DNA of 64,000 nucleotides from Candidatus Gottesmanbacteria bacterium RIFCSPLOWO2_01_FULL_43_11b (GCA_001780985.1 MFJV01000001.1:835497-899496), one strand, 5' to 3'. Shown: positions 20,245 through 64,000, counted from the stretch's first letter. The notes: generated from the sequence alone by a model not told the origin. Made by a program: numbers and translations.

Positions 20245-21189
20245 ATGAAAACTATTTTGGTTACCGGCGGGGGAGGATTTATCGGATCACACCTTTGTGA
20301 AAAACTCCTGGAGCAAGAATATAAAGTTATTTGTCTCGATAATTTTAGAACAAGCAAAAAACGAAATATTGACGAGTTAATTAATAACCCCAACTTTAGG
20401 CTTATTGAAGCAGACACGAGAGATGTTGGAGTTTCCAATCTTCCATTTTCAGAAAAACTTGACGAAATTTACGATCTGGCTAGCCCGGCATCAGTAACCT
20501 ACATTATGGAACACCCTGTGGAGGTAGCGACGGTTAACGCTATTGGTACCAAGAATATGCTTGATATCGCAAAATCTATGGGAGCAAAGTTTCTTTTTGC
20601 ATCAACATCGGAAGCGTACGGCGATCCTAAAGAACATCCGCAGAAAGAATCGTATTGGGGGAACGTTAATCCTATAGGCGCACGATCCGGTTATGACGAG
20701 GGGAAGCGTTTCGGTGAGACACTAACAATGGCATATCACAGAGAACATGGGCTTGACGGTAAAATTGTACGCATATTCAATACCTATGGGCCAAAGTCAG
20801 ATCCTGATGATACCCGAGTGATTCCTCAGTTTGTTACAAACGCACTACGCAGTAAGCCTCTCCCCATACACGGTGACGGTATGCAAACACGATCGTTTTG
20901 TTACGTCAGCGATATGGTAGACGGTATTATTAAAATGATGAACAGCGACCAAATCGGACCAATAAATCTCGGGAACCCCGACGAGTATAAAATTATCGAC
21001 GTAGCTAAAAAAATAATCTCTCTTACAAGCTCGACTTCAAAAATAGAATTCGTCAATCGCCCTCCCGATGACCCTTCAGTGCGAAAACCAGATATAAGCC
21101 TCGCGAAACAGTTATTAAATTGGGAGCCAAAAATTAAACTTGAAGAAGGATTAGCCTTAACTATTGAATACTTCCGCTCCTTACTTTAA
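20245..21189 (+). CDS. UDP-glucuronate decarboxylase (UDP-xylose synthase family SDR)
   Basis: TGGGGFIGSH Rossmann motif. STSEAYGDPKEHPQKESYWGNVNPIGARSGYDEGKRFGE is the UXS/ArnA-decarboxylase signature. Confidence 0.85.
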   Translation: MKTILVTGGGGFIGSHLCEKLLEQEYKVICLDNFRTSKKRNIDELINNPNFRLIEADTRDVGVSNLPFSEKLDEIYDLASPASVTYIMEHPVEVATVNAIGTKNMLDIAKSMGAKFLFASTSEAYGDPKEHPQKESYWGNVNPIGARSGYDEGKRFGETLTMAYHREHGLDGKIVRIFNTYGPKSDPDDTRVIPQFVTNALRSKPLPIHGDGMQTRSFCYVSDMVDGIIKMMNSDQIGPINLGNPDEYKIIDVAKKIISLTSSTSKIEFVNRPPDDPSVRKPDISLAKQLLNWEPKIKLEEGLALTIEYFRSLL

Positions 21190-35466: not shown

Positions 35467-36695
35467 AATGACTGTAAGAGGTGTTCAACATCCTGTTTCA
35501 TTCCCAAGAGTTCAAATTTTTCATCATAGGTCTTTTTTGCATTTGATCCAAGCTTCATTGCTAATTGTTTATCTTTAAGGAGTCGAACGATTGCTTGAGC
35601 GAGAAGGATAGAGTTATGGGGTGGAACGAGCAGACCTGAATATTCATGTTTTATATCCTCAGGAATCCCGTCACAGTCAGTGGAGACAATAGGTGTAGCT
35701 TGGCTCATAGCTTCAATGACTGACAAAGCGCTGCTTCCTTCTTCAACCGTCGGCAAGACGTAAACAGAAGATTTTCGCAAAATCGTATGAATGTCAGCAA
35801 CTGCACCGGGAAAGATAACAGAAGAAAGCTGTAATTTTCTCGCCAATCGTTTATTAGCATCCCGAAGAATACCCGCGCCTATAATAAGACACTCACAGTC
35901 GATTTGCTTTTTCACCAACACGAGTGCGTGAAGTAAATAATTAATACCTTTTCTTGGATCTTGCCGACAAATACTTGTTACGATTGGTTTACGGGAATCA
36001 AATGCTTTTTGCATCCGTTTTGATACGGGTGTTCTGATTTCTTTTTTAAATACTTCGACAAAGTATCTCATGCGAATAAATTTATTCGTGTTAATCTGGG
36101 ATTCAGATTTGAGAATTTCTTCGGTGGATTTGTAATGGGTAACTATTTTTTCTGACATTGAAATAACAAGGGTTGATAAAAAACTATAAATTCGGGCAAT
36201 GATGTAATAGACAAACAAATATTTCAGTTTTGTTGATATACCGTAATCCCTTATTCTTGCCGCCAAAAGCGACCCTCTCATTTCGTGAAGAAATGTTGTA
36301 AAGTAGCTTGATATAAGTACTACTTTTTTTCCGTAAACTATTTTTAAAAGTGCTCCTGAAAGTCCCCAAGGGCCTATTCCCCAGATAATTATGCGGTTAT
36401 TTTTGTATGATCGAAAAATAGCGATAAGTTCTTTAAAAAAGAAATAACTGTAAAGGGGCAACGCAGCAAGTTCTATATTTCGTATAAGCGGCAGATGATT
36501 TAGCCAACGCGACTTTATAAAGTGAATAGTTGCGATATCCCGTTTTTCTATCTTTTTTATATCTGCAAATGTCAGAAGGTGCACCGGATGGCCGGTTGCC
36601 GATATGATCTTAGCGATATTCCGTGCATATGAAGCATACCCACCGGTAGAGGTATACGGGGATTTACCGCCGATGACGACGACGGGTAATTTCAT
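35463..36695 (-). CDS. GT4 family glycosyltransferase
   Basis: EEGSSALSVIEAMSQATPIVSTDCDGIPEDIKHEYSGLLVP. Confidence 0.8.
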   Translation of the reverse strand: MKLPVVVIGGKSPYTSTGGYASYARNIAKIISATGHPVHLLTFADIKKIEKRDIATIHFIKSRWLNHLPLIRNIELAALPLYSYFFFKELIAIFRSYKNNRIIIWGIGPWGLSGALLKIVYGKKVVLISSYFTTFLHEMRGSLLAARIRDYGISTKLKYLFVYYIIARIYSFLSTLVISMSEKIVTHYKSTEEILKSESQINTNKFIRMRYFVEVFKKEIRTPVSKRMQKAFDSRKPIVTSICRQDPRKGINYLLHALVLVKKQIDCECLIIGAGILRDANKRLARKLQLSSVIFPGAVADIHTILRKSSVYVLPTVEEGSSALSVIEAMSQATPIVSTDCDGIPEDIKHEYSGLLVPPHNSILLAQAIVRLLKDKQLAMKLGSNAKKTYDEKFELLGMKQDVEHLLQSL

Positions 36696-37782
36696 GGATA
36701 GCGTAGGATACCATTTCTATTTGTTTTTTTGTAATAGCTAACCCGGAGGGCAGGTAAAGACCTCGGCGGGAAATTTCATCAGAAACAGGGAAACGCTCAT
36801 TGCCTAGATGATATTTACGAAGAGCTGGTTGGCAATGGAGCGGTATAAAAAAAGTTCTTGTATCAATGCCTTTCTTTTTGAGTTTGTCCATGAGTTCATC
36901 ACGGCTTATACCGAAAGAAGGTTCAATGAGAATAGAGTACATCCAGTAAACATTTCTCGCCCATGGTTTTTTGGGGGGTAATGAAATGCCTTCTATATCG
37001 GAAAGCAATCGATTATAGAGATCAGCCATCCATAACTTTTTTTCTATAAATTTATCTACTTCTTCAAGTTGCGCAAGGCCTAAAGCAGCCTGGAGATTGG
37101 TGAGTCTGTAGTTAAATGCGATTTCTTCATGGAGAAATCTTCGTTTTGGTGAGTGAGCAAGATCTTTGAGCATCCGTGCCCGAGTAGCAAGTTTTTCGTC
37201 GTCTGTAACAACCATGCCTCCCTCGCCGGTTGTTACGATTTTATTTGCGTAGAAACTAAAACAGTTGATTTTTCCGAAAGAACCAACCATTTTCCCTTTG
37301 TAAAGAGCCCCATGGGCTTCTGCTGCATCCTCCACAACTGCCAATTTGTACTTTTTTGCAAGAGAAATGAGAGGATCCATATCAACCGGGTGCCCATAAA
37401 TATGAACAGGTATGATCACTTTTGTGTGTTTGGTAATTTTTCTTTCTATTTTTTTCACATCAATGTTCCATGTATCCCGCTCCACGTCGACAACAACAGG
37501 TTTTGCTCCGGTATAACAGATTGCATCAGCGCAGGCGAACATTGTGTGGTCGGGAACAATTACCTCATCACCCGGACCAGTACCGAGGGTAGCGAGAGCC
37601 AGATGAAGTGCGGTCGTTCCGTTGGTTGTTGTGATTGCATATTTAACTCCGATAAATTTTGCGAATGCTTCTTCAAACTTAGTTATGTAGGAGCCGGCAG
37701 AAGAAATCCATCCGGTTTTGATGCAATCGGAAACGTATTTGAGCGCGTTTTTGGCAATCAACGGCTGATTAACGGGAATCAT
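36664..37782 (-). CDS. DegT/DnrJ/EryC1/StrS-family PLP-dependent sugar aminotransferase
   Basis: GDEVIVPDHTMFA..VDVE..DAAEAHG..CFSFYANKIVTTGEGGMVVTDD, with the catalytic Lys present (NK). Confidence 0.85.
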   Translation of the reverse strand: MIPVNQPLIAKNALKYVSDCIKTGWISSAGSYITKFEEAFAKFIGVKYAITTTNGTTALHLALATLGTGPGDEVIVPDHTMFACADAICYTGAKPVVVDVERDTWNIDVKKIERKITKHTKVIIPVHIYGHPVDMDPLISLAKKYKLAVVEDAAEAHGALYKGKMVGSFGKINCFSFYANKIVTTGEGGMVVTDDEKLATRARMLKDLAHSPKRRFLHEEIAFNYRLTNLQAALGLAQLEEVDKFIEKKLWMADLYNRLLSDIEGISLPPKKPWARNVYWMYSILIEPSFGISRDELMDKLKKKGIDTRTFFIPLHCQPALRKYHLGNERFPVSDEISRRGLYLPSGLAITKKQIEMVSYAIHEITRRRHRR

Positions 37783-39994: not shown

Positions 39995-41200
39995 ATGAGA
40001 CTGAATGCACTCATTTCTCTTATACATTCTAAAAAGGCAGCAATAGGCGTTATTGGCCTTGGTTACGTCGGTCTTCCGCTTGCTACGTTAATTGCCCGAA
40101 AAGGATTTCGCGTAACGGGTTTTGTACGCGATCCAAGTAAAATTAATCAAAAAAAAATACGAGTTGCTCACATAGATTCAGACGAACTTAATGAACAGGA
40201 TATATATATTATTTGTGTTCCAACCCCGGTATTCGAAAATAAAAAGCCGGATTTAGGTGCAATCAGAAGCGTTGCACAGCGGCTTTCCCTGGTGCTTCTG
40301 GATGGAAAGCTCATCATCAATGAGTCGACGGTTGCGCCGGGAACGACAAGAGAGGAGTTTGGATCGTTAGGAGGAAAATATTTTTTGGCATGTTCACCTG
40401 AGAGAGTAGATCCCGGAAATAAAGATAAAACTGTGCGAACCATATCTAAAGTTGTCGGCGGAGTTAATCCTGAGAGTTTAGCACTTGCCAAAGTACTCTA
40501 CGAAAAAGTTCTTGATGCACCTGTTGTAAGCGTTTCGTCTCTCGAGGCAGCTGAAATGGTCAAAATGCTTGAGAACACATACCGTGCGGTCAACATAGCC
40601 CTGGTCAATGAGTTTGCCAGACTTAGTGAAAAAACAGGACTTGATGTTGTTGAAATAATCGAAGCAGCAAAAACGAAATGGTCATACCATGCCCATTACC
40701 CGAGTGTCGGAGTCGGTGGTCACTGCATCCCTGTTGATCCCTGGTATCTTGTTGACTTTAGCAAAAAGAAAAACGTGAACCTCACCCTCATTGAACAGAG
40801 TTTAAAGGAGAACGATGCAATGGCACAGGTTGTCGCAGATAAAGTAATCTCTCAGTATAAAAAAGGAGCGACAGTTCTTCTGTATGGACTCACGTATAAA
40901 AAAGACGTCAAAGATATCCGTGAAAGTCCTGTTATTCGTCTGGCTAGGATTTTACAGAAAAACAATATTCGATTTGTGGCTTATGATCCGTTATTAAACG
41001 AACAGGAAATAAAAGCATTTGGTTTTACGCCGGGAAAACTTAAAACTTCGGATATTTTTATTGTCGGTACAGATCATAAACAACTTTCAGGGGATTTTAA
41101 AAGATGCGTAGACAATAATACAATAATTATTGACGGCAGGAATTTTTTCCGAATAAAGGTTGGCAAATCCGTTCTCGGGGTTGGTCGGTCGCTTGTATGA
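39995..41200 (+). CDS. nucleotide-sugar dehydrogenase (UDP-glucose/UDP-ManNAc 6-dehydrogenase family)
   Basis: N-terminal IGVIGLGYVGLPLA Rossmann motif. Catalytic GGHCIPVDPWYL. C-terminal UDP-binding domain. Confidence 0.85.
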   Translation: MRLNALISLIHSKKAAIGVIGLGYVGLPLATLIARKGFRVTGFVRDPSKINQKKIRVAHIDSDELNEQDIYIICVPTPVFENKKPDLGAIRSVAQRLSLVLLDGKLIINESTVAPGTTREEFGSLGGKYFLACSPERVDPGNKDKTVRTISKVVGGVNPESLALAKVLYEKVLDAPVVSVSSLEAAEMVKMLENTYRAVNIALVNEFARLSEKTGLDVVEIIEAAKTKWSYHAHYPSVGVGGHCIPVDPWYLVDFSKKKNVNLTLIEQSLKENDAMAQVVADKVISQYKKGATVLLYGLTYKKDVKDIRESPVIRLARILQKNNIRFVAYDPLLNEQEIKAFGFTPGKLKTSDIFIVGTDHKQLSGDFKRCVDNNTIIIDGRNFFRIKVGKSVLGVGRSLV

Positions 41201-43370: not shown

Positions 43371-43754
43371 ATGAAATATATAAAAACAGTGAAACCATTT
43401 TATATTGACGAGCGCGGGGAAATGTCTCATTTGCTGCCGGGCACTGTTAAAATAGCGAGTGCAATTGTTATTAAGTGTAAAAGAGGTACTATTCGTGCTA
43501 ATCATTACCATAAGCACGATACGCACTTTTCTTATATGCTTAAAGGCTCCATGGAATATGTGCACAAGGATTTAAAGAAAAAAAACTCAAGAAAGCAATC
43601 GTTTACCGTACGGGAAGGCCAAATTGTTATGACGCCACCCATGTTTGGTCATGCGATGAAATTTCTTGAGGATAGTGTGTTTTTAGCCCTTACGACTGAG
43701 CCGCGAAGCAGGAGCGAGTACGAAACGGACACTGTCCGAATGGAGCTTCTATGA
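43371..43754 (+). CDS. WxcM/FdtA-like cupin (NDP-4-keto-6-deoxyhexose 3,4-ketoisomerase family)
   Basis: 127 aa. RGTIRANHYHKHDTHFSYMLKGSMEY matches the RGxHxHK motif of FdtA/WxcM cupins. Confidence 0.7.
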   Translation: MKYIKTVKPFYIDERGEMSHLLPGTVKIASAIVIKCKRGTIRANHYHKHDTHFSYMLKGSMEYVHKDLKKKNSRKQSFTVREGQIVMTPPMFGHAMKFLEDSVFLALTTEPRSRSEYETDTVRMELL

Positions 43755-44995
43755 AAGGAGCAGTGCATAAAAGAACGACATGTCGAGCATGCAAAAACAC
43801 AAAGTTAACAAAGGTATTGTCTTTAGGACCGACGCCTCTTGCAAATGCTTTTCTCACAAAAGAAATGCTCGACAAAGAGGAAATGTTTTATCCACTTGAT
43901 GTCTATTTCTGTCAGAATTGCCATTTTCTTCAACTCGGTCATGTGGTTAGGCCGGAAATTCTTTTTAAAAATTATGTCTATGTTTCAAGCACGTCGCCCG
44001 TATTCGTTGAACACTTTCATGACTTCGCGCATGATCTTATACAACGGTTTGACTTGGATCAAAAATCGTTGGTTGTTGATATCGGCAGTAATGACGGAAT
44101 ACTTCTTAAACCCCTTAAAGAACATAACCTTCGTACACTGGGTATCGAGCCTGCGCAAAATATTGCGGCAAGAGCGAATAAAGACGGTATCAAAACCATT
44201 GCAAAATTTTTTACTACCGCTCTTGCACGGTCTATAGGTAAAGCATACGGTCAAGCATCGGTTGTGACTGCCAATAACGTATTTGCACATATTGACAATC
44301 TGGACGAAGTTATTGAAGGAACAAAAATTCTTCTTAAAAAAAACGGCGTTTTTGTCGTTGAGGCGCCGTATTTGGTAGATTTTCTTACCAAAAACTATTT
44401 TGATCTTGTCTATCACGAACACCTTTCGTATCTTTCGGTGAAACCGCTCCAAACACTCTTTCACCGATTTGACATGGAGATTTTTGATGTACAAAAAGTT
44501 CCGGTCCACGGAGGATCCATTCGCGTTTTTGTAAAGGGAAAAGGTGCGGCTTACAAACAAACAGCGCGTCTCAGTCATTTCCTAAAACTTGAAAAAAGGA
44601 TGCGCCTTGATAGAGTAGAGACATATTTTACCTATGCGGACAAGGTGCGAATTAACAAAACAAAACTCATTGCTCTCCTGACCAAACTTAAACATCAGGG
44701 GAAATCTATTGCCGGCTACGGTGCTCCCGCCAAAGGAAATACACTGCTCAATTACTTCGGAATCGGTACGGATTATATCAATTACATTATCGACGACAGC
44801 CCGTATAAACAAGGATTATATTCACCCGGGAAGCATATTCCCGTGGTAGCTTCCGCTATGTTAGCCAAGCAAAAACCTGATTACCTTCTTCTTCTTGCCT
44901 GGAATTTTGCCAAACCCATAATGGAAAAACTCCAAGACTATCAGCATCAGGGGGGAAAGTTCATAGTCCCTGTTCCAAGACCCAAAACTGTCTAA
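43751..44995 (+). CDS. NDP-hexose C-methyltransferase (TylC3/NovU-like; Zn-ribbon + SAM MTase + C-terminal domain)
   Basis: N-terminal CRACKN...CQNCHF zinc ribbon. VVDIGSNDGILL motif I. 414 aa three-domain layout typical of sugar 3-C/5-C methyltransferases. Confidence 0.75.
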   Translation: MKGAVHKRTTCRACKNTKLTKVLSLGPTPLANAFLTKEMLDKEEMFYPLDVYFCQNCHFLQLGHVVRPEILFKNYVYVSSTSPVFVEHFHDFAHDLIQRFDLDQKSLVVDIGSNDGILLKPLKEHNLRTLGIEPAQNIAARANKDGIKTIAKFFTTALARSIGKAYGQASVVTANNVFAHIDNLDEVIEGTKILLKKNGVFVVEAPYLVDFLTKNYFDLVYHEHLSYLSVKPLQTLFHRFDMEIFDVQKVPVHGGSIRVFVKGKGAAYKQTARLSHFLKLEKRMRLDRVETYFTYADKVRINKTKLIALLTKLKHQGKSIAGYGAPAKGNTLLNYFGIGTDYINYIIDDSPYKQGLYSPGKHIPVVASAMLAKQKPDYLLLLAWNFAKPIMEKLQDYQHQGGKFIVPVPRPKTV

Positions 44996-45002
44996 TAATT
45001 TT

Positions 45003-46064
45003 ATGCACCCGATTATTCGTCAGGATATACGTCAAATTATCAAAGATATAAAAAAAGAAGCAAGACTGATGGAAGGAAAAACACTTCTTATATCAGGTGG
45101 TGCCGGTTTTTTGGGAAGTTACATTGTCGCGACTATTTCTCTTTTAAACACAAGTCTTTTTAAATCTCCATGTAGGGTTATTGTTGTCGACAATTACATT
45201 ACCGGTAAAAGAAAACGGGATTTAGAATCTCTAGACGACAAAAATATAGAATTCATAACTCATGATATAACCAAACCAATAATTATTGATAAAACAATTG
45301 ACTATATTATTCATGCGGCGGGTTTGGCGTCGCCGGTATATTATAGGAAATTTCCCCTAGAAACCATCGAGGCAGCAATTTTTGGCGCAAAGAATCTTTT
45401 GGAATTGGCAAGGAAAAAGAAAGTTAAAAGCTTTCTCTTTTTTAGTTCAAGCGAAATTTACGGGGATCCTGATCCCAATTTTATTCCAACACCGGAAACA
45501 TACCGCGGTAACGTCTCTCCAATTGGTTCCCGCGCTTGTTATGATGAATCCAAAAGACTGGGAGAAACCATTTCTATAACGTATTTCGACAAATACAAAG
45601 TACCGGTTAAAATTGTACGACCATTTAATGTGTATGGACCCGGAATGAGGCCCGATGATTATCGGGTAATTCCTACCTTTTTAATGAGGGCGCTCGAAAG
45701 AAAACCTTTACCGGTCCATGATGAGGGTAATCAGACGCGAACATTCTGTTACATAAGCGACGCGACGACGGCATTTTTAAAGGTACTTCTTTCTCACAAA
45801 TCGGGAGAAGTGTATAACGTCGGCAGTGATGATGACGAAATAAATATGATGAGTCTCGCTCAAATTGTTGCGGACGTCTCACCGAAAAAAGTAGAAATAA
45901 AAAGAATTCCGTATCCGGAAAACTACCCTAAAGATGAGCCGCGCAGACGCCGCCCCGATCTTTCTAAAATTAAAAATATTCTCAACTACCGGACACGCGT
46001 GAGTCTGAGAACCGGACTCGCCCGTACGCTCCGATGGTTTGCAAGCCAGTTAGAAAAGCAATAG
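45003..46064 (+). CDS. UXS/ArnA-type NAD-dependent sugar nucleotide decarboxylase/dehydratase SDR
   Basis: ISGGAGFLGSY. SSSEIYGDPDPNFIPTPETYRGNVSPIGSRACYDESKRLGE is the UXS-like signature. 40-aa N-terminal extension. Confidence 0.75.
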   Translation: MHPIIRQDIRQIIKDIKKEARLMEGKTLLISGGAGFLGSYIVATISLLNTSLFKSPCRVIVVDNYITGKRKRDLESLDDKNIEFITHDITKPIIIDKTIDYIIHAAGLASPVYYRKFPLETIEAAIFGAKNLLELARKKKVKSFLFFSSSEIYGDPDPNFIPTPETYRGNVSPIGSRACYDESKRLGETISITYFDKYKVPVKIVRPFNVYGPGMRPDDYRVIPTFLMRALERKPLPVHDEGNQTRTFCYISDATTAFLKVLLSHKSGEVYNVGSDDDEINMMSLAQIVADVSPKKVEIKRIPYPENYPKDEPRRRRPDLSKIKNILNYRTRVSLRTGLARTLRWFASQLEKQ

Positions 46065-58148: not shown

Positions 58149-59312
58149 CTACTCGAATAGGCGAACGTAGATCTTTTTATAATCGTATCTATCCGCAAGA
58201 TTCTTCGCATTTATTTGGTACGAGTTGTAGCGGGAGAGAATTGTACCAATAGCACGGACAAATTCTTGTTTCCTGGTGTAGTTAAATACTATGCCGGCAC
58301 GGGAGCGACGGATTTCGCCGGCAAGACTTATGGGTGTGACGATGACCGGAATTCCCAGACTTAAGTAATCTTTAATTTTTGAGTTATCCGTATAGTAAGA
58401 CACATTGCTTTCTTCCGGTACGTAGGGCGCGATGCCTATATGCCATTGTTTCTGAATGTTTTTTACTTTTTGATAATCCGGAATATATCCGTAGAATTTG
58501 ACCGGAACCTGCGATTTTCCGGCTTTTTCCCGGAAGTATTGTTCATCAGGGCCGGAACCAATTATTTCACATGTAAGATTTGGGAAGAGCTCGTGTATCC
58601 TTTGAGCATTATCAAAGAAAATATCCAAACCCTGTGTTTTTTTGAGAACACCCAAAAAGCCAATAATTGGCGCAGTAAGATCGCGTTTTGATTTACGTAG
58701 CGGGTTGACGCTCGTTCCTATGGGTACTACCAAGGTGTCATGTTTGGGAAGCGCGTTGATTTTCATTCTCAGTTCCTGAAGTTTTAGGTGAAGAAACGCA
58801 ACAGTATCGGATTCTTGGGATGCTTTCTTGTCAAATTGCCAATAGTTCCACCGAACGAGACTGACAATTTTATTGGGATGCGAGGGAGGATAGTAATCCC
58901 AGACCCAAAAGATCGTTTTTTTTACAAAACGGTATTTTTTTAAAAGATTGCCCACCCAGGCGGTAAAAGCGTTGACTGTGAAATATATATCGTATGGTCC
59001 GTACTGATTTTTGAGTCGGATAACGTAATACCAAATTTGCAAAAGATTTAGAAACGACCGGATAGGAATAAGAAGGAAAACTGTCGATGGCGTTGTTCGA
59101 ATGGGCAAATCTAAGAGTGCGTATGTTTTTATTAATTTCCCGTTCTTATATATTGATAGTGTTCCAGGTTTATGTACTGCTCCCAAGTGGTGGAAGTTAA
59201 ATGAGAAAAGCAGAATGGTTTTAAACTTTGTCCGCAGATAATCAAGAATTCTCCCCGCATTTTCATAGGGGGAAAAATTAACGTAGATGATGGTTTTATA
59301 TTGTCTAATCAC
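58149..59312 (-). CDS. GT-B fold (GT4-like) glycosyltransferase, divergent
   Basis: C-terminal half IIGFLGVL..GLD..IIGSGPDEQYF..WHIGIAPYVPEESNVSYYTDNSKIKDYLSLGIPVIVTP resembles a degenerate Glycos_transf_1 domain. Confidence 0.5.
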   Translation of the reverse strand: MIRQYKTIIYVNFSPYENAGRILDYLRTKFKTILLFSFNFHHLGAVHKPGTLSIYKNGKLIKTYALLDLPIRTTPSTVFLLIPIRSFLNLLQIWYYVIRLKNQYGPYDIYFTVNAFTAWVGNLLKKYRFVKKTIFWVWDYYPPSHPNKIVSLVRWNYWQFDKKASQESDTVAFLHLKLQELRMKINALPKHDTLVVPIGTSVNPLRKSKRDLTAPIIGFLGVLKKTQGLDIFFDNAQRIHELFPNLTCEIIGSGPDEQYFREKAGKSQVPVKFYGYIPDYQKVKNIQKQWHIGIAPYVPEESNVSYYTDNSKIKDYLSLGIPVIVTPISLAGEIRRSRAGIVFNYTRKQEFVRAIGTILSRYNSYQINAKNLADRYDYKKIYVRLFE

Positions 59313-59316
59313 ACAA

Positions 59317-60306
59317 TTATTCTTTACGTAAAAGTTGAAAACGCAACCATTCGTAGATTATGAGCAACGCCATGACAAAACTTACCGGTATATGTAATAC
59401 CATAACAGAATCATGTTTTTTATGAACGAGAGAGATAGCTGAAATTGTCGGGCCAATAATACTTAAAGCGTAAGGGATAAAAAGTATTTTCCTCATACGC
59501 CTGGTTCTATTCATGAACCGTTCCCGATTGGCAAAACCCATCCCTTTGATAACAACAAAAAGATTATTTCGAATTCTCATGCGGTATTTTTGGATAAAAC
59601 TTTTCCACCCGCCGACATGATAGTGATAAAGAGGTGCATTCGGTACATAGGCAATTATGCCGCCTTCCATAATTAGTTTGATTCCCGAAAGAATGTCATC
59701 ACTCCAACCCATCGATTCACGCTTGAAAGTAGCGACTGTTCCCACCCCTTGGGATAAACCGAACAAAGGGTGATTTTGCGCAGTAAACTTATAGAGAAGA
59801 TAGTCTTTGGTGATTTTGAGTGGTTGATACAGACGCCTGTAATCTTTGGGGTTAGCGGCATTTTGGTAGATAAACCAAGTGAAGGGATCAGTAAAGAGAT
59901 GGCCGAGATATCTATTGAGTGGATGAGAGCCAGGCGGCGGCTCTGTTTGCGGCAGTAGCCCTTTTACTGTCTTGAGATTTTCAAGATATGGTTTGACCAT
60001 AGATGAAAGCCAATTTTGAGATCCCAGGACGTTATCAGCATCGGTAAAAAAGAGAAGTTCTCCTTTGGCAACCCCCGAGGCTCTTGCTTTTCCCGGTTCA
60101 TGCCACGTTTCCGGATTAGGAATTACCCTAGCTCCAAAAGATTCGGCTACTTTTTGAGTTTTATCCGTTGAACCACCGTCAGCTACAACAATTTCTATCT
60201 TGTTTTGCGGATAGCGTTGACTGCGAATTGCCGAAAGACAGCGCGGCAAAATATCGGCAGCATTGAGCGTCGGGATGATAAATGTTACCCGTGGTTTCTT
60301 ATTCAT
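59317..60306 (-). CDS. GT2 glycosyltransferase with C-terminal TM helices (polyprenol-phosphate sugar synthase-like)
   Basis: VTFIIPTLNAADIL..IVVADGGSTDKT..FFTDADN. Two C-terminal hydrophobic helices. Confidence 0.8.
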   Translation of the reverse strand: MNKKPRVTFIIPTLNAADILPRCLSAIRSQRYPQNKIEIVVADGGSTDKTQKVAESFGARVIPNPETWHEPGKARASGVAKGELLFFTDADNVLGSQNWLSSMVKPYLENLKTVKGLLPQTEPPPGSHPLNRYLGHLFTDPFTWFIYQNAANPKDYRRLYQPLKITKDYLLYKFTAQNHPLFGLSQGVGTVATFKRESMGWSDDILSGIKLIMEGGIIAYVPNAPLYHYHVGGWKSFIQKYRMRIRNNLFVVIKGMGFANRERFMNRTRRMRKILFIPYALSIIGPTISAISLVHKKHDSVMVLHIPVSFVMALLIIYEWLRFQLLRKE

Positions 60307-60346
60307 GGACTGCTTTGTAGAGCCATTGTATAATGCGCATTATATT

Positions 60347-61528
60347 ATGATTCCGCTTATTAAATCTACGTTTCATCAAGAGAAAAGCACAAAAGAAAAA
60401 ATTAGTCAGTTTATTCGGAAAAACTCTCACCTTAGTATGGCGGACGAATGTGCTAAATTTGAAAAAAACTTTTCTAAATACCAGGAAAGAAAGCATTGTG
60501 TAATGGTCAACAGCGGTAGTTCAGCCAATCTGGCTATCATCCAAGCTCTCCTTAACCTGGGAAAAATTAAAAAAGGAGACATGGTAGGATTTTCAGCGCT
60601 GACCTGGTCAACGAACGTCATGCCGCTCATTCAGCTCGGGTTGACGCCAATTCCTATTGATATTGAACTATCGACTCTGAACGTTTCTTCACGAACATTA
60701 CTTGCTGCAATAAAAAAATATCCTCTGCGTATGCTTTTTTTGACCAATCTTCTGGGGTTTTGTGATGACATAGACGTTATTCAACGTGTCTGTCAAAAAA
60801 GAAACATACTCCTTATTGAAGATAACTGCGAATCACTGGGTACGATTTACAAGAAGAAAAAATTGGGAAATTATGGATACGCGAGCACGTTTTCATTTTA
60901 TGTGGGACACCACATGTCAACTATCGAAGGCGGGGCCATCTGTACTGACAACGAGAGTTTGGCGACTATGTTACGGATTGTGCGGGCTCATGGTTGGGAT
61001 CGAAATCTTTCTTTTGTAAAACAAAAAGAAATTAGAAACAAATTCAAAGTTAATTCAACTTTTTATTCCCGCTATACGTTCTATGAACTGGGGTATAACT
61101 TTAGACCTACGGAAATAAGCGGATTTATCGGTAATGTCCAATTGAGATATATAGAGAAAATTATTAGTCGGCGGCAGGCAAATTTTTTACGTATGGCAAT
61201 ACCAATTTATCAAAAAACTGACCGGTATTATCCGATTCGATTTGAGCACATCGAACGGTTGTCTAACTTCGCCGTCCCGGTAGTGTGCCGTTCTGCAGCG
61301 ATTCGGGACGAGTTGGTTAGGCGTTGCGAGAGGGTGGTAGAAATTCGGCCAATCGTCGGAGGGGATATAACAAATCAACCGTTCTACAAGAAATACATGG
61401 GACAGTATGCTCAGACTTTTAGACATTCAAACGCCCGAATGGTTCATGAACGAGGTCTTTATTTTGGTAACAACCCGCAGCTAACTAAAAAAGATATGGA
61501 TACGATAGTTAAAATTTTCACAAGGTGA
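60347..61528 (+). CDS. ColD/E1 (RfbH/DdhC)-like PLP/PMP-dependent NDP-4-keto-6-deoxyhexose 3-dehydratase (DegT fold, His in place of Schiff-base Lys)
   Basis: DegT-family layout. Active-site block TFSFYVGHHMSTIEGGAICT has His-His where the three other DegT genes in this window have a Lys (ANK / ATK / PGK). Start MIPLIK at 60347. Confidence 0.7.
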   Translation: MIPLIKSTFHQEKSTKEKISQFIRKNSHLSMADECAKFEKNFSKYQERKHCVMVNSGSSANLAIIQALLNLGKIKKGDMVGFSALTWSTNVMPLIQLGLTPIPIDIELSTLNVSSRTLLAAIKKYPLRMLFLTNLLGFCDDIDVIQRVCQKRNILLIEDNCESLGTIYKKKKLGNYGYASTFSFYVGHHMSTIEGGAICTDNESLATMLRIVRAHGWDRNLSFVKQKEIRNKFKVNSTFYSRYTFYELGYNFRPTEISGFIGNVQLRYIEKIISRRQANFLRMAIPIYQKTDRYYPIRFEHIERLSNFAVPVVCRSAAIRDELVRRCERVVEIRPIVGGDITNQPFYKKYMGQYAQTFRHSNARMVHERGLYFGNNPQLTKKDMDTIVKIFTR

Positions 61529-61532
61529 CGCT

Positions 61533-62513
61533 ATGCGAAATTTTTGGAAACGACAAAAGGTGCTGGTTACCGGCGGCGGGGGGTTTATCGGAAGCCATCT
61601 TGTAGAGAAACTGGTGGAAAAAGGTGCACGGGTGACGGTCGTTGATGTGAACAGGAAACAGACGGAAGAAAATCTGTCCGGAGTGACGAGTAAAGTACGA
61701 TTGATAGCAGGGGATTGTCGGAAGAAACAGGTCATAGAAACAGCTTGTTCCGGGCAAGATATTGTCATGAATTTGGCAGCCAGAGTTTCCGGGATTGAGT
61801 TTAACCGACAGCATCAAGCAACGATGTTTCGGGATAACCTTCAGATTGCCACCGCAGTTATTGAAGCGGCCAGGATAAACCATGTCAAACGATTTTTAGT
61901 AGTATCGTCTGCGTGCGTATATTCACTACAGTGCTCAATTCCCACACCAGAAAGTGAAGGATTTATGGGAGAACCCGAAACAACAAATGAAGGGTATGGA
62001 TGGTCAAAACGCATGGCAGAAAAACTTGGAATGTATTACGCGCAGGAATTCGATATGAAGGTGGCTATTGTTCGCCCCTACAACAGTTATGGACCGCGTG
62101 ATCATTTTGACCCGAAGATCTCGCATGTCATCCCGGCACTTATCAAACGAATATTTGATGGTGAGAATCCAATTGTGGTCTGGGGGAGCGGAAGGCAAAC
62201 CCGGGCGTTTCTCTATGTTGATGATCTTGTCCGGGGTCTGATGCTAGCGGTCGAGCGTTATCCACAAGCCGATCCGGTGAATTTGGGTACAAATGAGGAA
62301 GTTACCATTGCCGAGCTTGTCAACAAAATAAAACTACTCATTGATCCTAAACGAAAAGTAAGATTTGACACCACAAAACCCGATGGGAGTCCCAGGCGTA
62401 ATTGCGATAACTCAAAAGCCATACAGCATTTGCATTTTAAATCCCGTATACCACTCTCCGTAGGGCTAAGACACACCATTTTTTGGTACCGAAAATACGT
62501 ATCACCCAAATAA
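61533..62513 (+). CDS. NAD(P)-dependent sugar nucleotide epimerase/reductase (extended SDR)
   Basis: VLVTGGGGFIGSHL and YGWSKRMAEK (YxxxK). 326 aa. Directly downstream of the 3-dehydratase-like gene. Confidence 0.75.
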   Translation: MRNFWKRQKVLVTGGGGFIGSHLVEKLVEKGARVTVVDVNRKQTEENLSGVTSKVRLIAGDCRKKQVIETACSGQDIVMNLAARVSGIEFNRQHQATMFRDNLQIATAVIEAARINHVKRFLVVSSACVYSLQCSIPTPESEGFMGEPETTNEGYGWSKRMAEKLGMYYAQEFDMKVAIVRPYNSYGPRDHFDPKISHVIPALIKRIFDGENPIVVWGSGRQTRAFLYVDDLVRGLMLAVERYPQADPVNLGTNEEVTIAELVNKIKLLIDPKRKVRFDTTKPDGSPRRNCDNSKAIQHLHFKSRIPLSVGLRHTIFWYRKYVSPK

Positions 62514-62538
62514 AACGGTCACCTTCCTCTGCTATAAT

Positions 62539-63270
62539 TTGTCTATGAAAAAAATAGTTGAATGGATACTTACTGCGAAGGTGTTAACTTTTCCCAGAAG
62601 ATATTTAGTAAGAATTATCGCACGTGCCATGTCGGTTAGCAGAATAGGAGCGTTATATGTTCTTAACCTCCAGGATCCGGAAACTGCTAAAGCAGTTAAT
62701 TTAATAGCACACATCAAAAGAGAAACAACGATGCTTTTGAGTGACTTTTGTGCCTACCAACTCTATACGACAGTGAAAAAAACGAGAAAAGTTAAAGGCG
62801 ATATTGCTGAAGTTGGTGTCTATAAAGGAGGGTCAGCAAAGCTGATTTGTGAAGCTTCGCCCCACAAGAAGATTTACTTATTCGACACGTTTAAGGGATT
62901 ACCCGAATTATCAATAAACGATAAATCTTCTCATTTTAAAAAAGGTGACTATGCTACCTCGTTTGAAATTGTTAAAACTTATTTGAAAAAGTATAGGAAC
63001 GTTATTTTTTGTAAAGGGTTTTTTCCTGCTACGGCCGACTTTGTGAAGAAAAACAAATTCTCTTTTGTACATATTGATGTGGACCTTTATGAAGCAACAT
63101 TTAATTGTTTGAAATTTTTTTATCCCAGGATGAATAAGGGAGGGGTAATTCTGGGTCATGATTATCCCGGAGCACCGGGGGTCAAAAAGGCGTTCGATGA
63201 TTTTTTTAGGGATAAACCGCAAACAATCTTTGAGATACCCGGAACGGGACAATGTTTAATCTCGAAATGA
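62539..63270 (+). CDS. TylF/MycF-family sugar O-methyltransferase
   Basis: GDIAEVGVYKGGSA..LFDTFKGLPE..HIDVDLYEAT..GGVILGHDY matches the macrocin O-methyltransferase family pattern. Confidence 0.8.
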   Translation: MSMKKIVEWILTAKVLTFPRRYLVRIIARAMSVSRIGALYVLNLQDPETAKAVNLIAHIKRETTMLLSDFCAYQLYTTVKKTRKVKGDIAEVGVYKGGSAKLICEASPHKKIYLFDTFKGLPELSINDKSSHFKKGDYATSFEIVKTYLKKYRNVIFCKGFFPATADFVKKNKFSFVHIDVDLYEATFNCLKFFYPRMNKGGVILGHDYPGAPGVKKAFDDFFRDKPQTIFEIPGTGQCLISK

Positions 63271-64000
63271 AACTTAAATACTTTGCGATTATTGTTCTTT
63301 TGTTTTCCTTTTTCGGATTAACACTGACAAGCAGCGTATCAGAATCCCCGGTTACGGACGAACCCGGCCACATTAGCACCGGATTGCTCTACTTAAAATA
63401 TGGTGATCTCACATTCAACTCCGGCTCTCCGCTTCTTGCAAACATTCTTTCCGCTCTTCCGCTTTATACAATGTCGTCTCTCACAATACCCATGGACGTT
63501 CAATATTTTCAAAATGGCTATTTACACTCCTTTGCTAAAGATTTTTTCATGATGAATAAAGCTAGGGTAGATCAAATACTACTTTTGTCACGATTGCCCA
63601 TAATGCTTGCCGGCATGCTTCTTGGACTCGTCATTTTCATCTGGACCAAAAATTGGTACGGATTTTTCCCGGCATTACTTGCGCTTGGTTTGTATGTTGG
63701 AGAACCTAGTTTTCTTGCTCATGCACATTACGCAACAACGGATGTTCTCTTTGCCTTGATGTTTACCACAACAATCTTCTTTTTAGAGCGATACCTTTCT
63801 CAAAAACGCAATTATTATTTGTTTTTATTTGCCGCTTTATTTGCTTTAAGCCAGCTTGTAAAGATCACTGCGATTTTTCTTTACCCTCTTTGTTTTCTTA
63901 TCTTTGCCATGTACTCAAGGAAAGCCGACGTTCTTGAAAAAATTTTCGAGGCAACACGGAGGGTTTTTGTGCTGGCCGTCTTTTCTCTGTTAGCCATCAA
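63267..64000 (+). CDS. GT-C (PMT_2/ArnT-like) glycosyltransferase, 3' end outside window
   Basis: Not in the supplied ORF track because no stop occurs before the window end. My own translation from the ATG at 63267 (ATGA overlap) gives MKLKYFAIIVLLFSF..TDEPGHISTGLLYL..GEPSFLAHAHYATTDVLF with no stop through nt 64000. Confidence 0.7.
   Translation, partial: MKLKYFAIIVLLFSFFGLTLTSSVSESPVTDEPGHISTGLLYLKYGDLTFNSGSPLLANILSALPLYTMSSLTIPMDVQYFQNGYLHSFAKDFFMMNKARVDQILLLSRLPIMLAGMLLGLVIFIWTKNWYGFFPALLALGLYVGEPSFLAHAHYATTDVLFALMFTTTIFFLERYLSQKRNYYLFLFAALFALSQLVKITAIFLYPLCFLIFAMYSRKADVLEKIFEATRRVFVLAVFSLLAI

What the first reader, a model, noticed from the sequence alone, without database searches (positions are those of the whole stretch)
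60347..63270. ColD/E1-type 3-dehydratase, SDR and TylF O-methyltransferase cassette: O-methylated 3,6-dideoxyhexose?
Of the four DegT-fold genes in the window, only 60347..61528 replaces the Schiff-base Lys with His (FSFYVGHHMSTIEGG, against CFSFYANK, CFSFYATK and TFSFYPGK in the others). This substitution defines the ColD and E1 (RfbH/DdhC) family, which performs C-3 deoxygenation of NDP-4-keto-6-deoxyhexoses in the colitose, abequose, paratose, tyvelose and ascarylose pathways. It is followed directly by an extended SDR, a candidate 4-reductase or epimerase, and a TylF/MycF-family sugar O-methyltransferase. This points to a rare methylated dideoxy sugar in the glycan.
Basis: partly seen in the sequence, partly recalled or inferred. 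Interest (0 to 1): 0.65.

Follow-up and report, generated by a model that had tools for sequence, protein, structure and literature searches.

The report
Colitose-type dideoxy-sugar gene pair
Two adjacent genes in an uncultured candidate-phylum (Gottesmanbacteria) bacterium look like the known enzyme pair that makes the rare sugar colitose, but nothing ties the methyltransferase next to them to that sugar, so this is an ordinary pathway in an unusual host.

Summary
Gene A (60347-61528) is a DegT-fold protein with His at the exact column of the Schiff-base Lys. The other three DegT genes in the window keep Lys. A's best solved relative is E. coli ColD (E 4e-57). Three of the four E1 [2Fe-2S] cysteines are missing, so A is the iron-sulfur-independent ColD type, not E1.

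Gene B (61533-62513) is not a generic reductase. It belongs to the GDP-L-fucose synthase family and keeps the Ser/Cys/Tyr/Lys/His catalytic set, like ColC. In 81 related loci, a B-type gene sits next to the A-type gene in 32. Bona fide gmd-A-B operons occur. Bacteroidota show B-A-GT11, as in E. coli O55.

The likeliest product is therefore GDP-L-colitose or a C4 stereoisomer. The nucleotide (GDP versus CDP) is inferred, and no gmd or nucleotidyltransferase lies in at least 79 kb.

Gene C, the TylF methyltransferase (62545-63270), is not a conserved partner. Its homologues sit in unrelated contexts, and methyltransferases are not enriched beside A. C may have its own promoter, and its 3' end overlaps the start of a GT-C glycosyltransferase gene. 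The "O-methylated dideoxyhexose" remains a guess.

This is a new member of a known kind and of modest interest. The host is a Patescibacteria bacterium, and the family is widespread and poorly annotated there.

The parts
60306..60334 (+). Promoter-like site TGGACT-17-TATAAT, in the only intergenic gap upstream of gene A; the -10 hexamer ends 12 nt before the ATG
   Evidence: 10 of 12 matches, the best in the region. The region as a whole has no more sites than shuffles, so this is a consensus match only. Sequence.
60347..61528 (+). Gene A: ColD-type NDP-4-keto-6-deoxyhexose 3-dehydratase (PLP/PMP enzyme, His188 in place of Lys, no Fe-S site), 393 aa
   Evidence: ColD 2gms E 3.9e-57 against E1 4.1e-40. 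His in 79/79 family members. E1 Cys ligand columns are R/L/I. ColD D159, E162, S183, R219, N248, R250, E329 and R331 are invariant. Foldseek's top 9 hits are all ColD.
61533..62513 (+). Gene B: GDP-L-fucose-synthase-family epimerase/reductase (ColC-like), 326 aa. Its start lies 4 nt after A's stop, with AGGTGA inside the end of A as a ribosome-binding site
   Evidence: NCBIfam Fcl 198.9 bits (cutoff 500). PDB GDP-L-fucose synthase 1.7e-44. S126, C128, Y155, K159 and H198 are conserved. Directly adjacent to A-type genes in 32/81 loci.
62530..62538 (+). TGcTATAAT (extended -10-like) ending 6 nt before the ATG of gene C, with no Shine-Dalgarno sequence: possibly a separate, leaderless transcript for C and the GT-C gene
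   Evidence: Read directly. The -35/-10 scan did not report it. Inference only.
62545..63270 (+). Gene C: TylF/NovP/MycF-family SAM- and metal-dependent sugar O-methyltransferase, 241 aa; substrate unknown
   Evidence: PF05711 76.5 bits. Matches 4cdz, NovP and MycF at e-11 to e-7. The DxDLYE motif is kept and the DD pair is HD here. Not a conserved partner of A.
63252..64000 (+). GT-C (PMT_2) membrane glycosyltransferase, 577 aa in the full contig, running off the window. Its start (63252 as called, or 63267) overlaps the end of gene C
   Evidence: PF13231 7.7e-10 and 1.1e-8.
58149..60306 (-). Divergent GT4 (58149-59312) and GT2 (59317-60306) genes: candidate transferases for the sugar (inferred)
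   Evidence: Pfam. The same two protein clusters (40 and 29) lie next to the A-type gene in L023 and L040.
36664..37782 (-). GDP-perosamine-synthase-like aminotransferase (Lys type): a second predicted consumer of GDP-4-keto-6-deoxy-D-mannose in the same locus
   Evidence: C. crescentus Per 3bn1 E 5.9e-97, 328 bits; LegC family 369.7 bits, cutoff 420. It shares the acidic-x-Arg motif (GIDTR) with Per (GIESRP), ColD (IECRP) and gene A (VEIRP).

Best explanation
Genes A and B form a two-step module that turns an NDP-4-keto-6-deoxyhexose, most likely GDP-4-keto-6-deoxy-D-mannose, into a 3,6-dideoxy-L-hexose nucleotide, most likely GDP-L-colitose or its C4 epimer. A works like E. coli ColD. PMP forms a Schiff base with the sugar's C4 keto group, and His188 abstracts the C4' proton so that the 3-OH leaves. 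The enamine is released and hydrolysed to the 4-keto-3,6-dideoxy sugar plus ammonia, and PLP is recharged to PMP by transamination from L-glutamate. No iron-sulfur cluster or E3-type reductase is needed. B works like ColC/Fcl. Cys128 and His198 epimerise C5, and the Ser126-Tyr155-Lys159 triad with NAD(P)H reduces C4. The precursor must be made elsewhere in the genome. The sugar is then used by the very large surface-glycan locus around it. The adjacent TylF-type methyltransferase C is probably tied more closely to the downstream GT-C transferase than to A and B, and its substrate cannot be assigned. Shown here: fold, catalytic residues, absence of the Fe-S site, and recurrent A-B and gmd-A-B linkage. 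Inferred: GDP as the nucleotide, the stereochemistry of the product, and every step after B.
For: Evidence for A:
- A's best solved relative is ColD: 197 bits, against 141 for E1 and 97 or less for aminotransferases.
- Foldseek's top 9 hits are ColD chains.
- NJ tree topology is (Lys-type aminotransferases,(E1,(EcColD, family))).
- His188 is present in 79/79 members. E1 Cys251/253/261 are replaced by Arg/Leu/Ile. ColD's PLP and NDP-contact positions D159, E162, S183, R219, N248, R250, E329 and R331 are invariant.

Evidence for B:
- B's best NCBIfam hit is GDP-L-fucose synthase.
- B's best PDB hits are GDP-L-fucose synthases (1.7e-44, 1.3e-40) and GDP-mannose 3,5-epimerase (7e-39).
- Ser/Thr, Cys (43/45), Tyr, Lys and His (45/45) are conserved across B-type neighbours.

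Linkage:
- B-type genes occur in 45/81 loci and are directly adjacent to A in 32.
- A gmd-A-B order occurs in L047, L057, L059, L060, L065, L072 and L084.
- L047's gmd scores 518.9 bits, above the TIGR01472 cutoff of 415.
- L057's B is 54% identical to the window's B.
- Bacteroidota loci show B-A-GT11. This mirrors E. coli O55 colC-colD plus the GT11 enzyme WbgN, which uses GDP-L-colitose (PMC11987014).

GDP rather than CDP:
- Both partner families are GDP-specific.
- Gmd-linked loci are basal and interspersed within the window's clade.
- The E-x-R-P motif is shared by ColD, GDP-perosamine synthase and A, but is G-x-R in the CDP enzyme E1.
- The locus also encodes a GDP-perosamine-synthase-like enzyme that would need the same precursor.

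Mechanism of ColD against E1/SpnQ: review PMC8987622.
Against: - No gmd, manC, manB or any nucleotidyltransferase lies in the 64 kb window or in the 7.5 kb on either side, so the precursor and its nucleotide are not shown for this genome.
- Among the closer relatives of A (58-70% identity, 49 loci), only 4 have gmd within 10 kb. Five have a Glc-1-P cytidylyltransferase plus an SDR with the 'SDK' motif, whose best match is CDP-glucose 4,6-dehydratase.
- B scores below the Fcl equivalog cutoff (198.9 against 500). It is closer to E. coli Fcl (33%) than to E. coli ColC (27%).
- ColD Ser187 is Gly/Ala in this family.
- 30 of the 49 closer loci have no B-type partner within 10 kb.
- The reading of E329 as a guanine contact rests on my memory of the ColD structure papers, which could not be read here.
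- The structure model has low confidence in the active-site loops.
Confidence: 0.6

Rival explanations
1. One reading: A, B and C act on one sugar, and C O-methylates the 3,6-dideoxyhexose at O-2 or O-4, on the nucleotide or lipid-linked sugar or after transfer. The result is a methylated dideoxy sugar.
For: C lies 31 nt downstream of B on the same strand, with no terminator-like site between them. C's solved relatives NovP and MycF are sugar O-methyltransferases; that they methylate 6-deoxyhexose residues, and that colitose is 3-deoxy-L-fucose, is my own knowledge. In L017 an unrelated class-I methyltransferase sits between A and B.
Against: The TylF gene is next to A only in this genome's own contigs. 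One weak TylF gene lies 4.5 kb away in L071. Homologues at ~55% identity lie among housekeeping genes or in nonulosonic-acid-type clusters. Methyltransferases are not enriched at +-1-2 genes from A: 14/307 against a 5% background. The window has about ten methyltransferase domains. C has its own extended -10-like box, and its 3' end overlaps the start of the GT-C gene.
Confidence: 0.2
2. A uses ColD chemistry on a CDP sugar. CDP-4-keto-6-deoxy-D-glucose (from RfbF and a CDP-glucose 4,6-dehydratase encoded elsewhere) is 3-deoxygenated without Fe-S or E3. B then epimerises and reduces it to a CDP-3,6-dideoxy-L-hexose of the ascarylose type.
For: RfbF-like genes (PDB 1tzf E 4e-58; TIGR02623 281 bits, cutoff 300) and an SDR with 'SSDKAYG', best matching CDP-glucose 4,6-dehydratase (182 bits), lie within 10 kb of A-type genes in L007, L017, L020, L026 and L038. 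All five are close relatives, 62-69% identical. Gmd is rare near this clade, in 4/49 loci.
Against: The RfbF operon carries its own dehydratase and a further SDR, so it looks self-contained. RfbF also co-occurs with gmd in L078 and L081. RfbF-linked and gmd-linked loci are interspersed in the tree. B's nearest families are all GDP-specific. The E-x-R-P motif matches the GDP enzymes and not E1. The window itself has no RfbF.
Confidence: 0.12
3. B is an ordinary GDP-L-fucose synthase, so the locus makes fucose. A's product is reduced by some other enzyme, or A and B merely share the Gmd product.
For: B is closer to E. coli Fcl (33%, 155 bits) than to E. coli ColC (27%, 114 bits). E. coli Fcl nests among the B-type neighbours in the tree.
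Against: The window's B subclade sits directly downstream of A in 8 of 10 members, including a gmd-A-B operon in L057. No other candidate 4-reductase lies next to A here. In a gmd-A-B operon, an Fcl would compete with A for substrate and leave A's keto product stranded.
Confidence: 0.08

Closest known systems
ColD (WbdK), GDP-4-keto-6-deoxy-D-mannose 3-dehydratase of E. coli O55 (PDB 2gms, 3b8x)
   Same: Same fold. 34.8% identity over 382 residues. His at position 188. No [2Fe-2S] cysteines. Identical residues at D159, E162, S183, R213, W217, R219, N248, R250, E329 and R331. Encoded next to an Fcl-family gene.
   Different: Ser187 is Gly here, and Gly or Ala across the family. No gmd, manC or manB nearby. 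The host is a Patescibacteria bacterium in a GT-C-rich locus, not a Gram-negative O-antigen cluster. Activity and nucleotide are untested.
ColC, GDP-L-colitose synthase of E. coli O55, and Fcl/GMER, GDP-L-fucose synthase
   Same: Extended SDR with Ser-Tyr-Lys plus the Cys/His epimerase dyad. Genomic partner of the 3-dehydratase.
   Different: Only 27% identity to ColC and 33% to Fcl. It forms its own subclade. The first ~75 residues do not align to the top-scoring bacterial Fcl chains and look more like GDP-mannose 3,5-epimerase or UXS, with GGGGFIGSHL and Asp38 after strand 2. It scores below the NCBIfam Fcl cutoff.
E1 (RfbH/DdhC/AscC), CDP-6-deoxy-L-threo-D-glycero-4-hexulose 3-dehydrase, with its reductase E3
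   Same: DegT fold and the His-for-Lys replacement. Best NCBIfam hit by name, RfbH at 210 bits.
   Different: Below the RfbH cutoff of 423. Three of the four Fe-S cysteines are absent. No E3-like ferredoxin-reductase gene in the window. E329 of the GDP enzymes is Gly in E1.
TylF / NovP / MycF sugar O-methyltransferases
   Same: PF05711 above threshold. The DxDLYE motif is conserved. ~240 aa class-I SAM fold.
   Different: Weak similarity, e-11 to e-7. The Asp-Asp pair is His-Asp here. The context is a cell-surface glycan locus, not an antibiotic cluster. The acceptor is unknown.

Membership tests
ColD-type sugar 3-dehydratase | DegT/fold-type-I PLP fold closest to ColD | tested here: met
   PF01041 at 2.4e-59. 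ColD 197 bits against E1 141 bits. Foldseek's top 9 hits are ColD, TM 0.76-0.77. Fold scores alone barely separate ColD from E1.
ColD-type sugar 3-dehydratase | His in place of the Schiff-base Lys (ColD H188) | tested here: met
   Column analysis: window H188, family 79/79 His, Lys in the three other DegT proteins.
ColD-type sugar 3-dehydratase | No [2Fe-2S] site; PMP regenerated from glutamate | tested here: met
   E1 ligand columns 251, 253 and 261 are R, L and I. Glutamate dependence itself cannot be tested here.
ColD-type sugar 3-dehydratase | Acts on GDP-4-keto-6-deoxy-D-mannose; gmd and colC in the pathway | tested here: inconclusive
   The colC-like partner is adjacent. gmd-A-B operons occur in relatives. 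The E-x-R-P motif is shared with GDP enzymes. However, no gmd lies within at least 79 kb here, and RfbF is linked in 5 close loci.
ColD-type sugar 3-dehydratase | Catalytic activity (C3 deoxygenation) | not testable with these tools
   Needs enzymology.
E1 (RfbH/DdhC/AscC) 3-dehydrase | C-X57-C-X1-C-X7-C [2Fe-2S] motif | tested here: not met
   Only the first Cys is present (C161); the others are R219, L221 and I229.
E1 (RfbH/DdhC/AscC) 3-dehydrase | NCBIfam RfbH equivalog score | tested here: not met
   210 bits against a cutoff of 423.
E1 (RfbH/DdhC/AscC) 3-dehydrase | Partner E3 reductase and the CDP-glucose genes rfbF and rfbG | tested here: not met
   No ferredoxin-reductase, NTP_transferase or CDP-glucose dehydratase hit among the window's ORFs of 150 aa or more. 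The rest of the genome was not searched.
GDP-L-colitose synthase / GDP-L-fucose synthase (Fcl family) | Ser-Tyr-Lys triad plus the Cys/His acid-base pair | tested here: met
   S126, C128, Y155, K159 and H198 align with Fcl 7ll6. They are conserved in 43-45 of 45 B-type neighbours.
GDP-L-colitose synthase / GDP-L-fucose synthase (Fcl family) | NCBIfam Fcl equivalog score | tested here: not met
   198.9 bits against a cutoff of 500. B is a family member but not an Fcl equivalog.
GDP-L-colitose synthase / GDP-L-fucose synthase (Fcl family) | Genomic coupling to a ColD gene, the ColC role | tested here: met
   Adjacent in 32/81 loci. The window's subclade lies directly downstream of A in 8/10 members. 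E. coli O55 colC-colD are likewise adjacent.
TylF/NovP/MycF O-methyltransferase | PF05711 above gathering score; metal and SAM motifs | tested here: met
   76.5 bits against 23. DxDLYE is kept, and the DD pair is HD.
TylF/NovP/MycF O-methyltransferase | Acts on the sugar made by the neighbouring genes | tested here: inconclusive
   There is adjacency only. It is not conserved in 80 related loci or from the methyltransferase side.

The most novel reading that the evidence does not exclude
Patescibacteria are not expected to make LPS (my own assumption, not checked here). On this reading they make a colitose-type 3,6-dideoxy-L-hexose as a regular part of their envelope glycans. In this Gottesmanbacteria genome the sugar is O-methylated in the cytoplasm, on the nucleotide- or polyprenyl-phosphate-linked sugar. 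It is then delivered outside the membrane by the GT-C transferase whose gene start overlaps the 3' end of the methyltransferase gene. As far as I recall (not checked here), that would be the first colitose outside Gram-negative O-antigens, and a methylated one.
Probability: 0.15. Interest if true: 0.6.

Novelty: new member of a known kind. Interest (0 to 1): 0.3.

Why it matters
To my knowledge, colitose and its ColD/ColC pathway are known from LPS O-antigens of a few Gram-negative pathogens. Here the same enzyme pair sits in a huge GT-C-rich glycan locus of an uncultured candidate-phylum bacterium. The A-type protein has more than 120 relatives at 67-72% identity, most of them without a source name; the few that are named come from Patescibacteria groups. 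Databases label them 'hypothetical protein' or 'aminotransferase'. E. coli O55 ColD itself is named only as a DegT aminotransferase in RefSeq, and the only 3-dehydratase model that matched A in NCBIfam is RfbH.

The practical gains are threefold:
- A better annotation rule: His188, no Cys251/253/261 equivalents, and E-x-R-P.
- A concrete sugar to look for on Patescibacteria surfaces.
- A caution that the neighbouring methyltransferase should not be read as part of the pathway.

Tried and rejected
- **Precursor genes.** Pfam and NCBIfam scans of all 56 larger ORFs in the window, plus 7.5 kb beyond each end, found no gmd, manC or rfbF.
- **Window SDRs as the missing 4,6-dehydratase.** 20245-21189 and 45003-46064 were rejected. 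They carry the UXS/ArnA decarboxylase motifs (STSEAYGDP...YDEGKR).
- **ColD and E1 structure papers.** I tried to read them to verify the GDP contacts, but they are not held. The role of E329 therefore rests on memory plus the comparison with GDP-perosamine synthase.
- **SDR upstream of A in several Microgenomates loci.** The ~310 aa SDR (e.g. L018:9060-9992) was considered as a dehydratase. It reads STAHVYG and so lacks the acid/base pair, and it was rejected.
- **TylF-to-ColD link from the methyltransferase side.** Four look-ups found no link.
- **Rfam and tRNA scans of the window.** Nothing found.
- **Literature on CPR plus colitose.** No paper found.
- **Structure prediction.** It added little: pLDDT 78.5, with the active-site and dimer-interface loops below 50.
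Full report
**What is there.** The finding covers three same-strand genes.
- A is 60347-61528 (393 aa).
- B is 61533-62513 (326 aa).
- C is 62545-63270 (241 aa).

A's stop and B's start are 4 nt apart, and AGGTGA lies inside the end of A. B and C are 31 nt apart. C's end overlaps the start of a PMT_2-type GT-C glycosyltransferase gene, which starts at 63252 or 63267 and encodes 577 aa in the full contig. Upstream, GT4 and GT2 genes run divergently.

The exact A protein is on record as a 'hypothetical protein' of a Candidatus Gottesmanbacteria bacterium (RIFCSPLOWO2_01_FULL_43...), on contigs up to 1.02 Mb. No Rfam family or tRNA lies in the window.

**Checking the observation.** Pfam places A in DegT_DnrJ_EryC1 (2.4e-59), B in the extended SDR epimerase family, and C in TylF (76.5 bits against a cutoff of 23). 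The window holds four DegT-fold genes.

Against solved structures, A matches E. coli ColD best (2gms, E 3.9e-57, 197 bits). Then come E1 (3bcx, 4.1e-40), a putative NDP-4-keto-6-deoxyglucose 3-dehydratase (9wvy, 2.5e-34), and aminotransferases from 8e-27 downwards.

The alignment pairs FYVGHH with ColD's FYSHH, and the deposited H188N and H188K mutants mark the first His as residue 188. In a multiple alignment, that column is His in all 79 family members and in E1. It is Lys in the window's three other DegT proteins.

**ColD type or E1 type.** Reviews describe the defining difference. E1 and SpnQ hold a [2Fe-2S] cluster on four cysteines and need a reductase. ColD has no cluster and regenerates PMP from glutamate (PMC8987622).

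In the alignment to E1, the cysteines of ...RDCYCAPGCDNTC... face ...HGWDRNLSFVKQKEIRN... in A. Across the family, the E1 ligand columns 251, 253 and 261 are Arg, Leu and Ile/Leu. Only the Cys of EDNCE is kept, exactly as in ColD.

ColD residues D159, E162, S183, R213, W217, R219, N248, R250, E329 and R331 are invariant in the family. Ser187 is Gly or Ala.

An NJ tree gives (Lys-type aminotransferases,(E1,(E. coli ColD, family))). A predicted structure (pLDDT 78.5) finds ColD chains as the nine best Foldseek hits, but the TM-scores barely separate ColD from E1. No E3-like reductase gene is in the window.

A is therefore a ColD-type 3-dehydratase. It fails the E1 membership tests, including the RfbH equivalog cutoff (210 against 423 bits).

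**The SDR.** B's best NCBIfam model is GDP-L-fucose synthase (198.9 bits, below the equivalog cutoff of 500). Its best solved relatives are GDP-L-fucose synthases (1.7e-44 and 1.3e-40) and GDP-mannose 3,5-epimerase (7e-39).

B keeps Ser126, Cys128, Tyr155, Lys159 and His198. These correspond to the reductase triad and the epimerase acid/base pair of Fcl. The five positions are conserved in 43-45 of 45 B-type proteins found next to A-type genes.

I fetched the E. coli O55 cluster for comparison. There colC, annotated 'GDP-L-fucose synthase family protein', directly precedes colD, annotated only as a DegT aminotransferase. The cluster also carries gmd, manC, manB and the GT11 enzyme WbgN. B is 33% identical to E. 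coli Fcl and 27% to ColC.

In a tree, the window's B lies in its own subclade. Its members sit directly downstream of the A-type gene in 8 of 10 cases, and its basal member lies in a gmd-A-B operon.

**Comparative genomics.** I kept 80 loci. Clustering all neighbours gave the following.
- B-type SDRs occur in 45 of 81 loci and are directly adjacent to A in 32.
- A Gmd cluster occurs in 24 loci, with the order gmd-A-B in seven.
- L047's gmd passes the TIGR01472 cutoff (518.9 against 415).
- L057's gmd scores 459 bits on PF16363, and its B is 54% identical to the window's B.
- Five Bacteroidota loci read B-A-GT11-GT2, with Wzm/Wzt-like transporter genes (assigned by eye from the sequences) in L071 and L085.

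This mirrors E. coli O55, whose GT11 enzyme WbgN transfers colitose from GDP-L-colitose (PMC11987014). So the family, taken broadly, sits in canonical colitose gene sets.

**GDP or CDP.** This is the weak point. Neither the window nor the 7.5 kb beyond each end has gmd, manC or any nucleotidyltransferase.

Among A's closer relatives (58-70% identity, 49 loci), only 4 have gmd nearby. Five have a glucose-1-phosphate cytidylyltransferase (1tzf E 4e-58; TIGR02623 281 bits) followed by an SDR reading SSDKAYG. That SDR's best match is CDP-glucose 4,6-dehydratase.

Several points argue against a CDP substrate.
- That operon carries a further SDR and looks self-contained.
- RfbF co-occurs with gmd in L078 and L081.
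- Gmd-linked and RfbF-linked loci are interspersed in the tree.
- B's nearest families are all GDP-specific.
- The motif E-x-R-P (VEIRP in A) is shared with ColD (IECRP) and with GDP-perosamine synthase (IESRP), whereas E1 has G-x-R.
- The window's aminotransferase 36664-37782 is itself GDP-perosamine-synthase-like (3bn1 E 5.9e-97) and would need the same GDP-4-keto-6-deoxymannose.

I rate GDP at about 0.7.

**The methyltransferase.** C has the TylF fold and the DxDLYE motif, and its nearest structures are NovP, MycF and 4cdz. It is not a conserved partner.
- In the 81 loci, a TylF-type gene appears only in this genome's own contigs and, weakly and 4.5 kb from A, in L071.
- C has many ~55% homologues, several of them named as Patescibacteria proteins. 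Four of them with long contigs sit among housekeeping genes or in other sugar clusters, and none lies near a ColD-like gene.
- Methyltransferases of any class occupy 14 of 307 positions within two genes of A, the same as the 5% background.

The window has about ten methyltransferase domains. C is preceded by TGcTATAAT ending 6 nt before its ATG, with no ribosome-binding site, and its 3' end overlaps the start of the GT-C gene. It may therefore belong to a separate transcript with that transferase. The 'O-methylated 3,6-dideoxyhexose' is possible but unsupported.

**Verdict.** The 3-dehydratase reading is right and can be narrowed to the ColD type with a ColC-like partner, which points to GDP-L-colitose or a close stereoisomer. 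The three-gene cassette and the methylated sugar are not supported. This is a new member of a known kind. The interest lies in the host, the apparent spread of the family in Patescibacteria, and the poor annotation of the family.

Noticed in passing
window 1-64000; L092 (7.5 kb upstream); L001 (7.5 kb downstream): The glycan locus spans at least 79 kb. The window holds 10 PMT_2-type plus 1 YfhO-type GT-C membrane glycosyltransferases, with more beyond both ends. It also has many GT2 and GT4 genes and about ten methyltransferase domains. It has no nucleotidyltransferase at all.
   Followed up: partly
window 36664-37782 (-): This Lys-type DegT gene is a close relative of GDP-perosamine synthase (3bn1 E 5.9e-97; LegC family 370 bits, cutoff 420). 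It is a second predicted consumer of GDP-4-keto-6-deoxymannose in a locus with no gmd.
   Followed up: partly
window 43751-46064 (+): An NDP-hexose C-methyltransferase (PF08421 + PF08484) is directly followed by a UXS/ArnA-like decarboxylase-type SDR (SSSEIYGDP...YDESKR). The same pair recurs in L005, where the SDRs are 59% identical. In L007 and L020 this SDR type follows RfbF. It may be a route to a branched-chain sugar.
   Followed up: no
window 60329-60334 and 62530-62538: TATAAT boxes lie 12 nt and 6 nt upstream of the ATGs of genes A and C, with no Shine-Dalgarno sequence. This suggests very short-leader or leaderless transcripts. These are consensus matches only.
   Followed up: no
L010, L021, L024, L043, L050 (e.g. 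L043:11461-12369): In 30 of 49 loci of A's closer clade, no Fcl-like partner lies within 10 kb. In five of these loci, a conserved 302-aa protein with no Pfam hit lies directly downstream of the ColD-like gene. What handles the 4-keto product there is unknown.
   Followed up: partly
L017:18195-19915, L026:17692-20362, L038:2942-5592: Microgenomates loci carry an operon with one or two Glc-1-P cytidylyltransferase genes, an 'SSDKAYG' SDR (best match CDP-glucose 4,6-dehydratase, below cutoff) and a further SDR. This is a CDP-6-deoxyhexose route near the ColD-like gene.
   Followed up: partly
L095 (E. coli O55:H7 CB9615, NC_013941.1 2553701-2555787): RefSeq names the biochemically characterised ColD only 'DegT/DnrJ/EryC1/StrS family aminotransferase', ColC 'GDP-L-fucose synthase family protein', and the colitosyltransferase WbgN 'alpha-1,2-fucosyltransferase'. 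The only 3-dehydratase model that matched gene A in NCBIfam was RfbH, so there seems to be no ColD model. This explains the poor annotation of the family.
   Followed up: partly
window 20245-21189 (+): This SDR has all the UDP-glucuronate decarboxylase (UXS) motifs, and a nucleotide-sugar dehydrogenase gene lies at 39995-41200. The locus probably also uses UDP-xylose or a related pentose.
   Followed up: no
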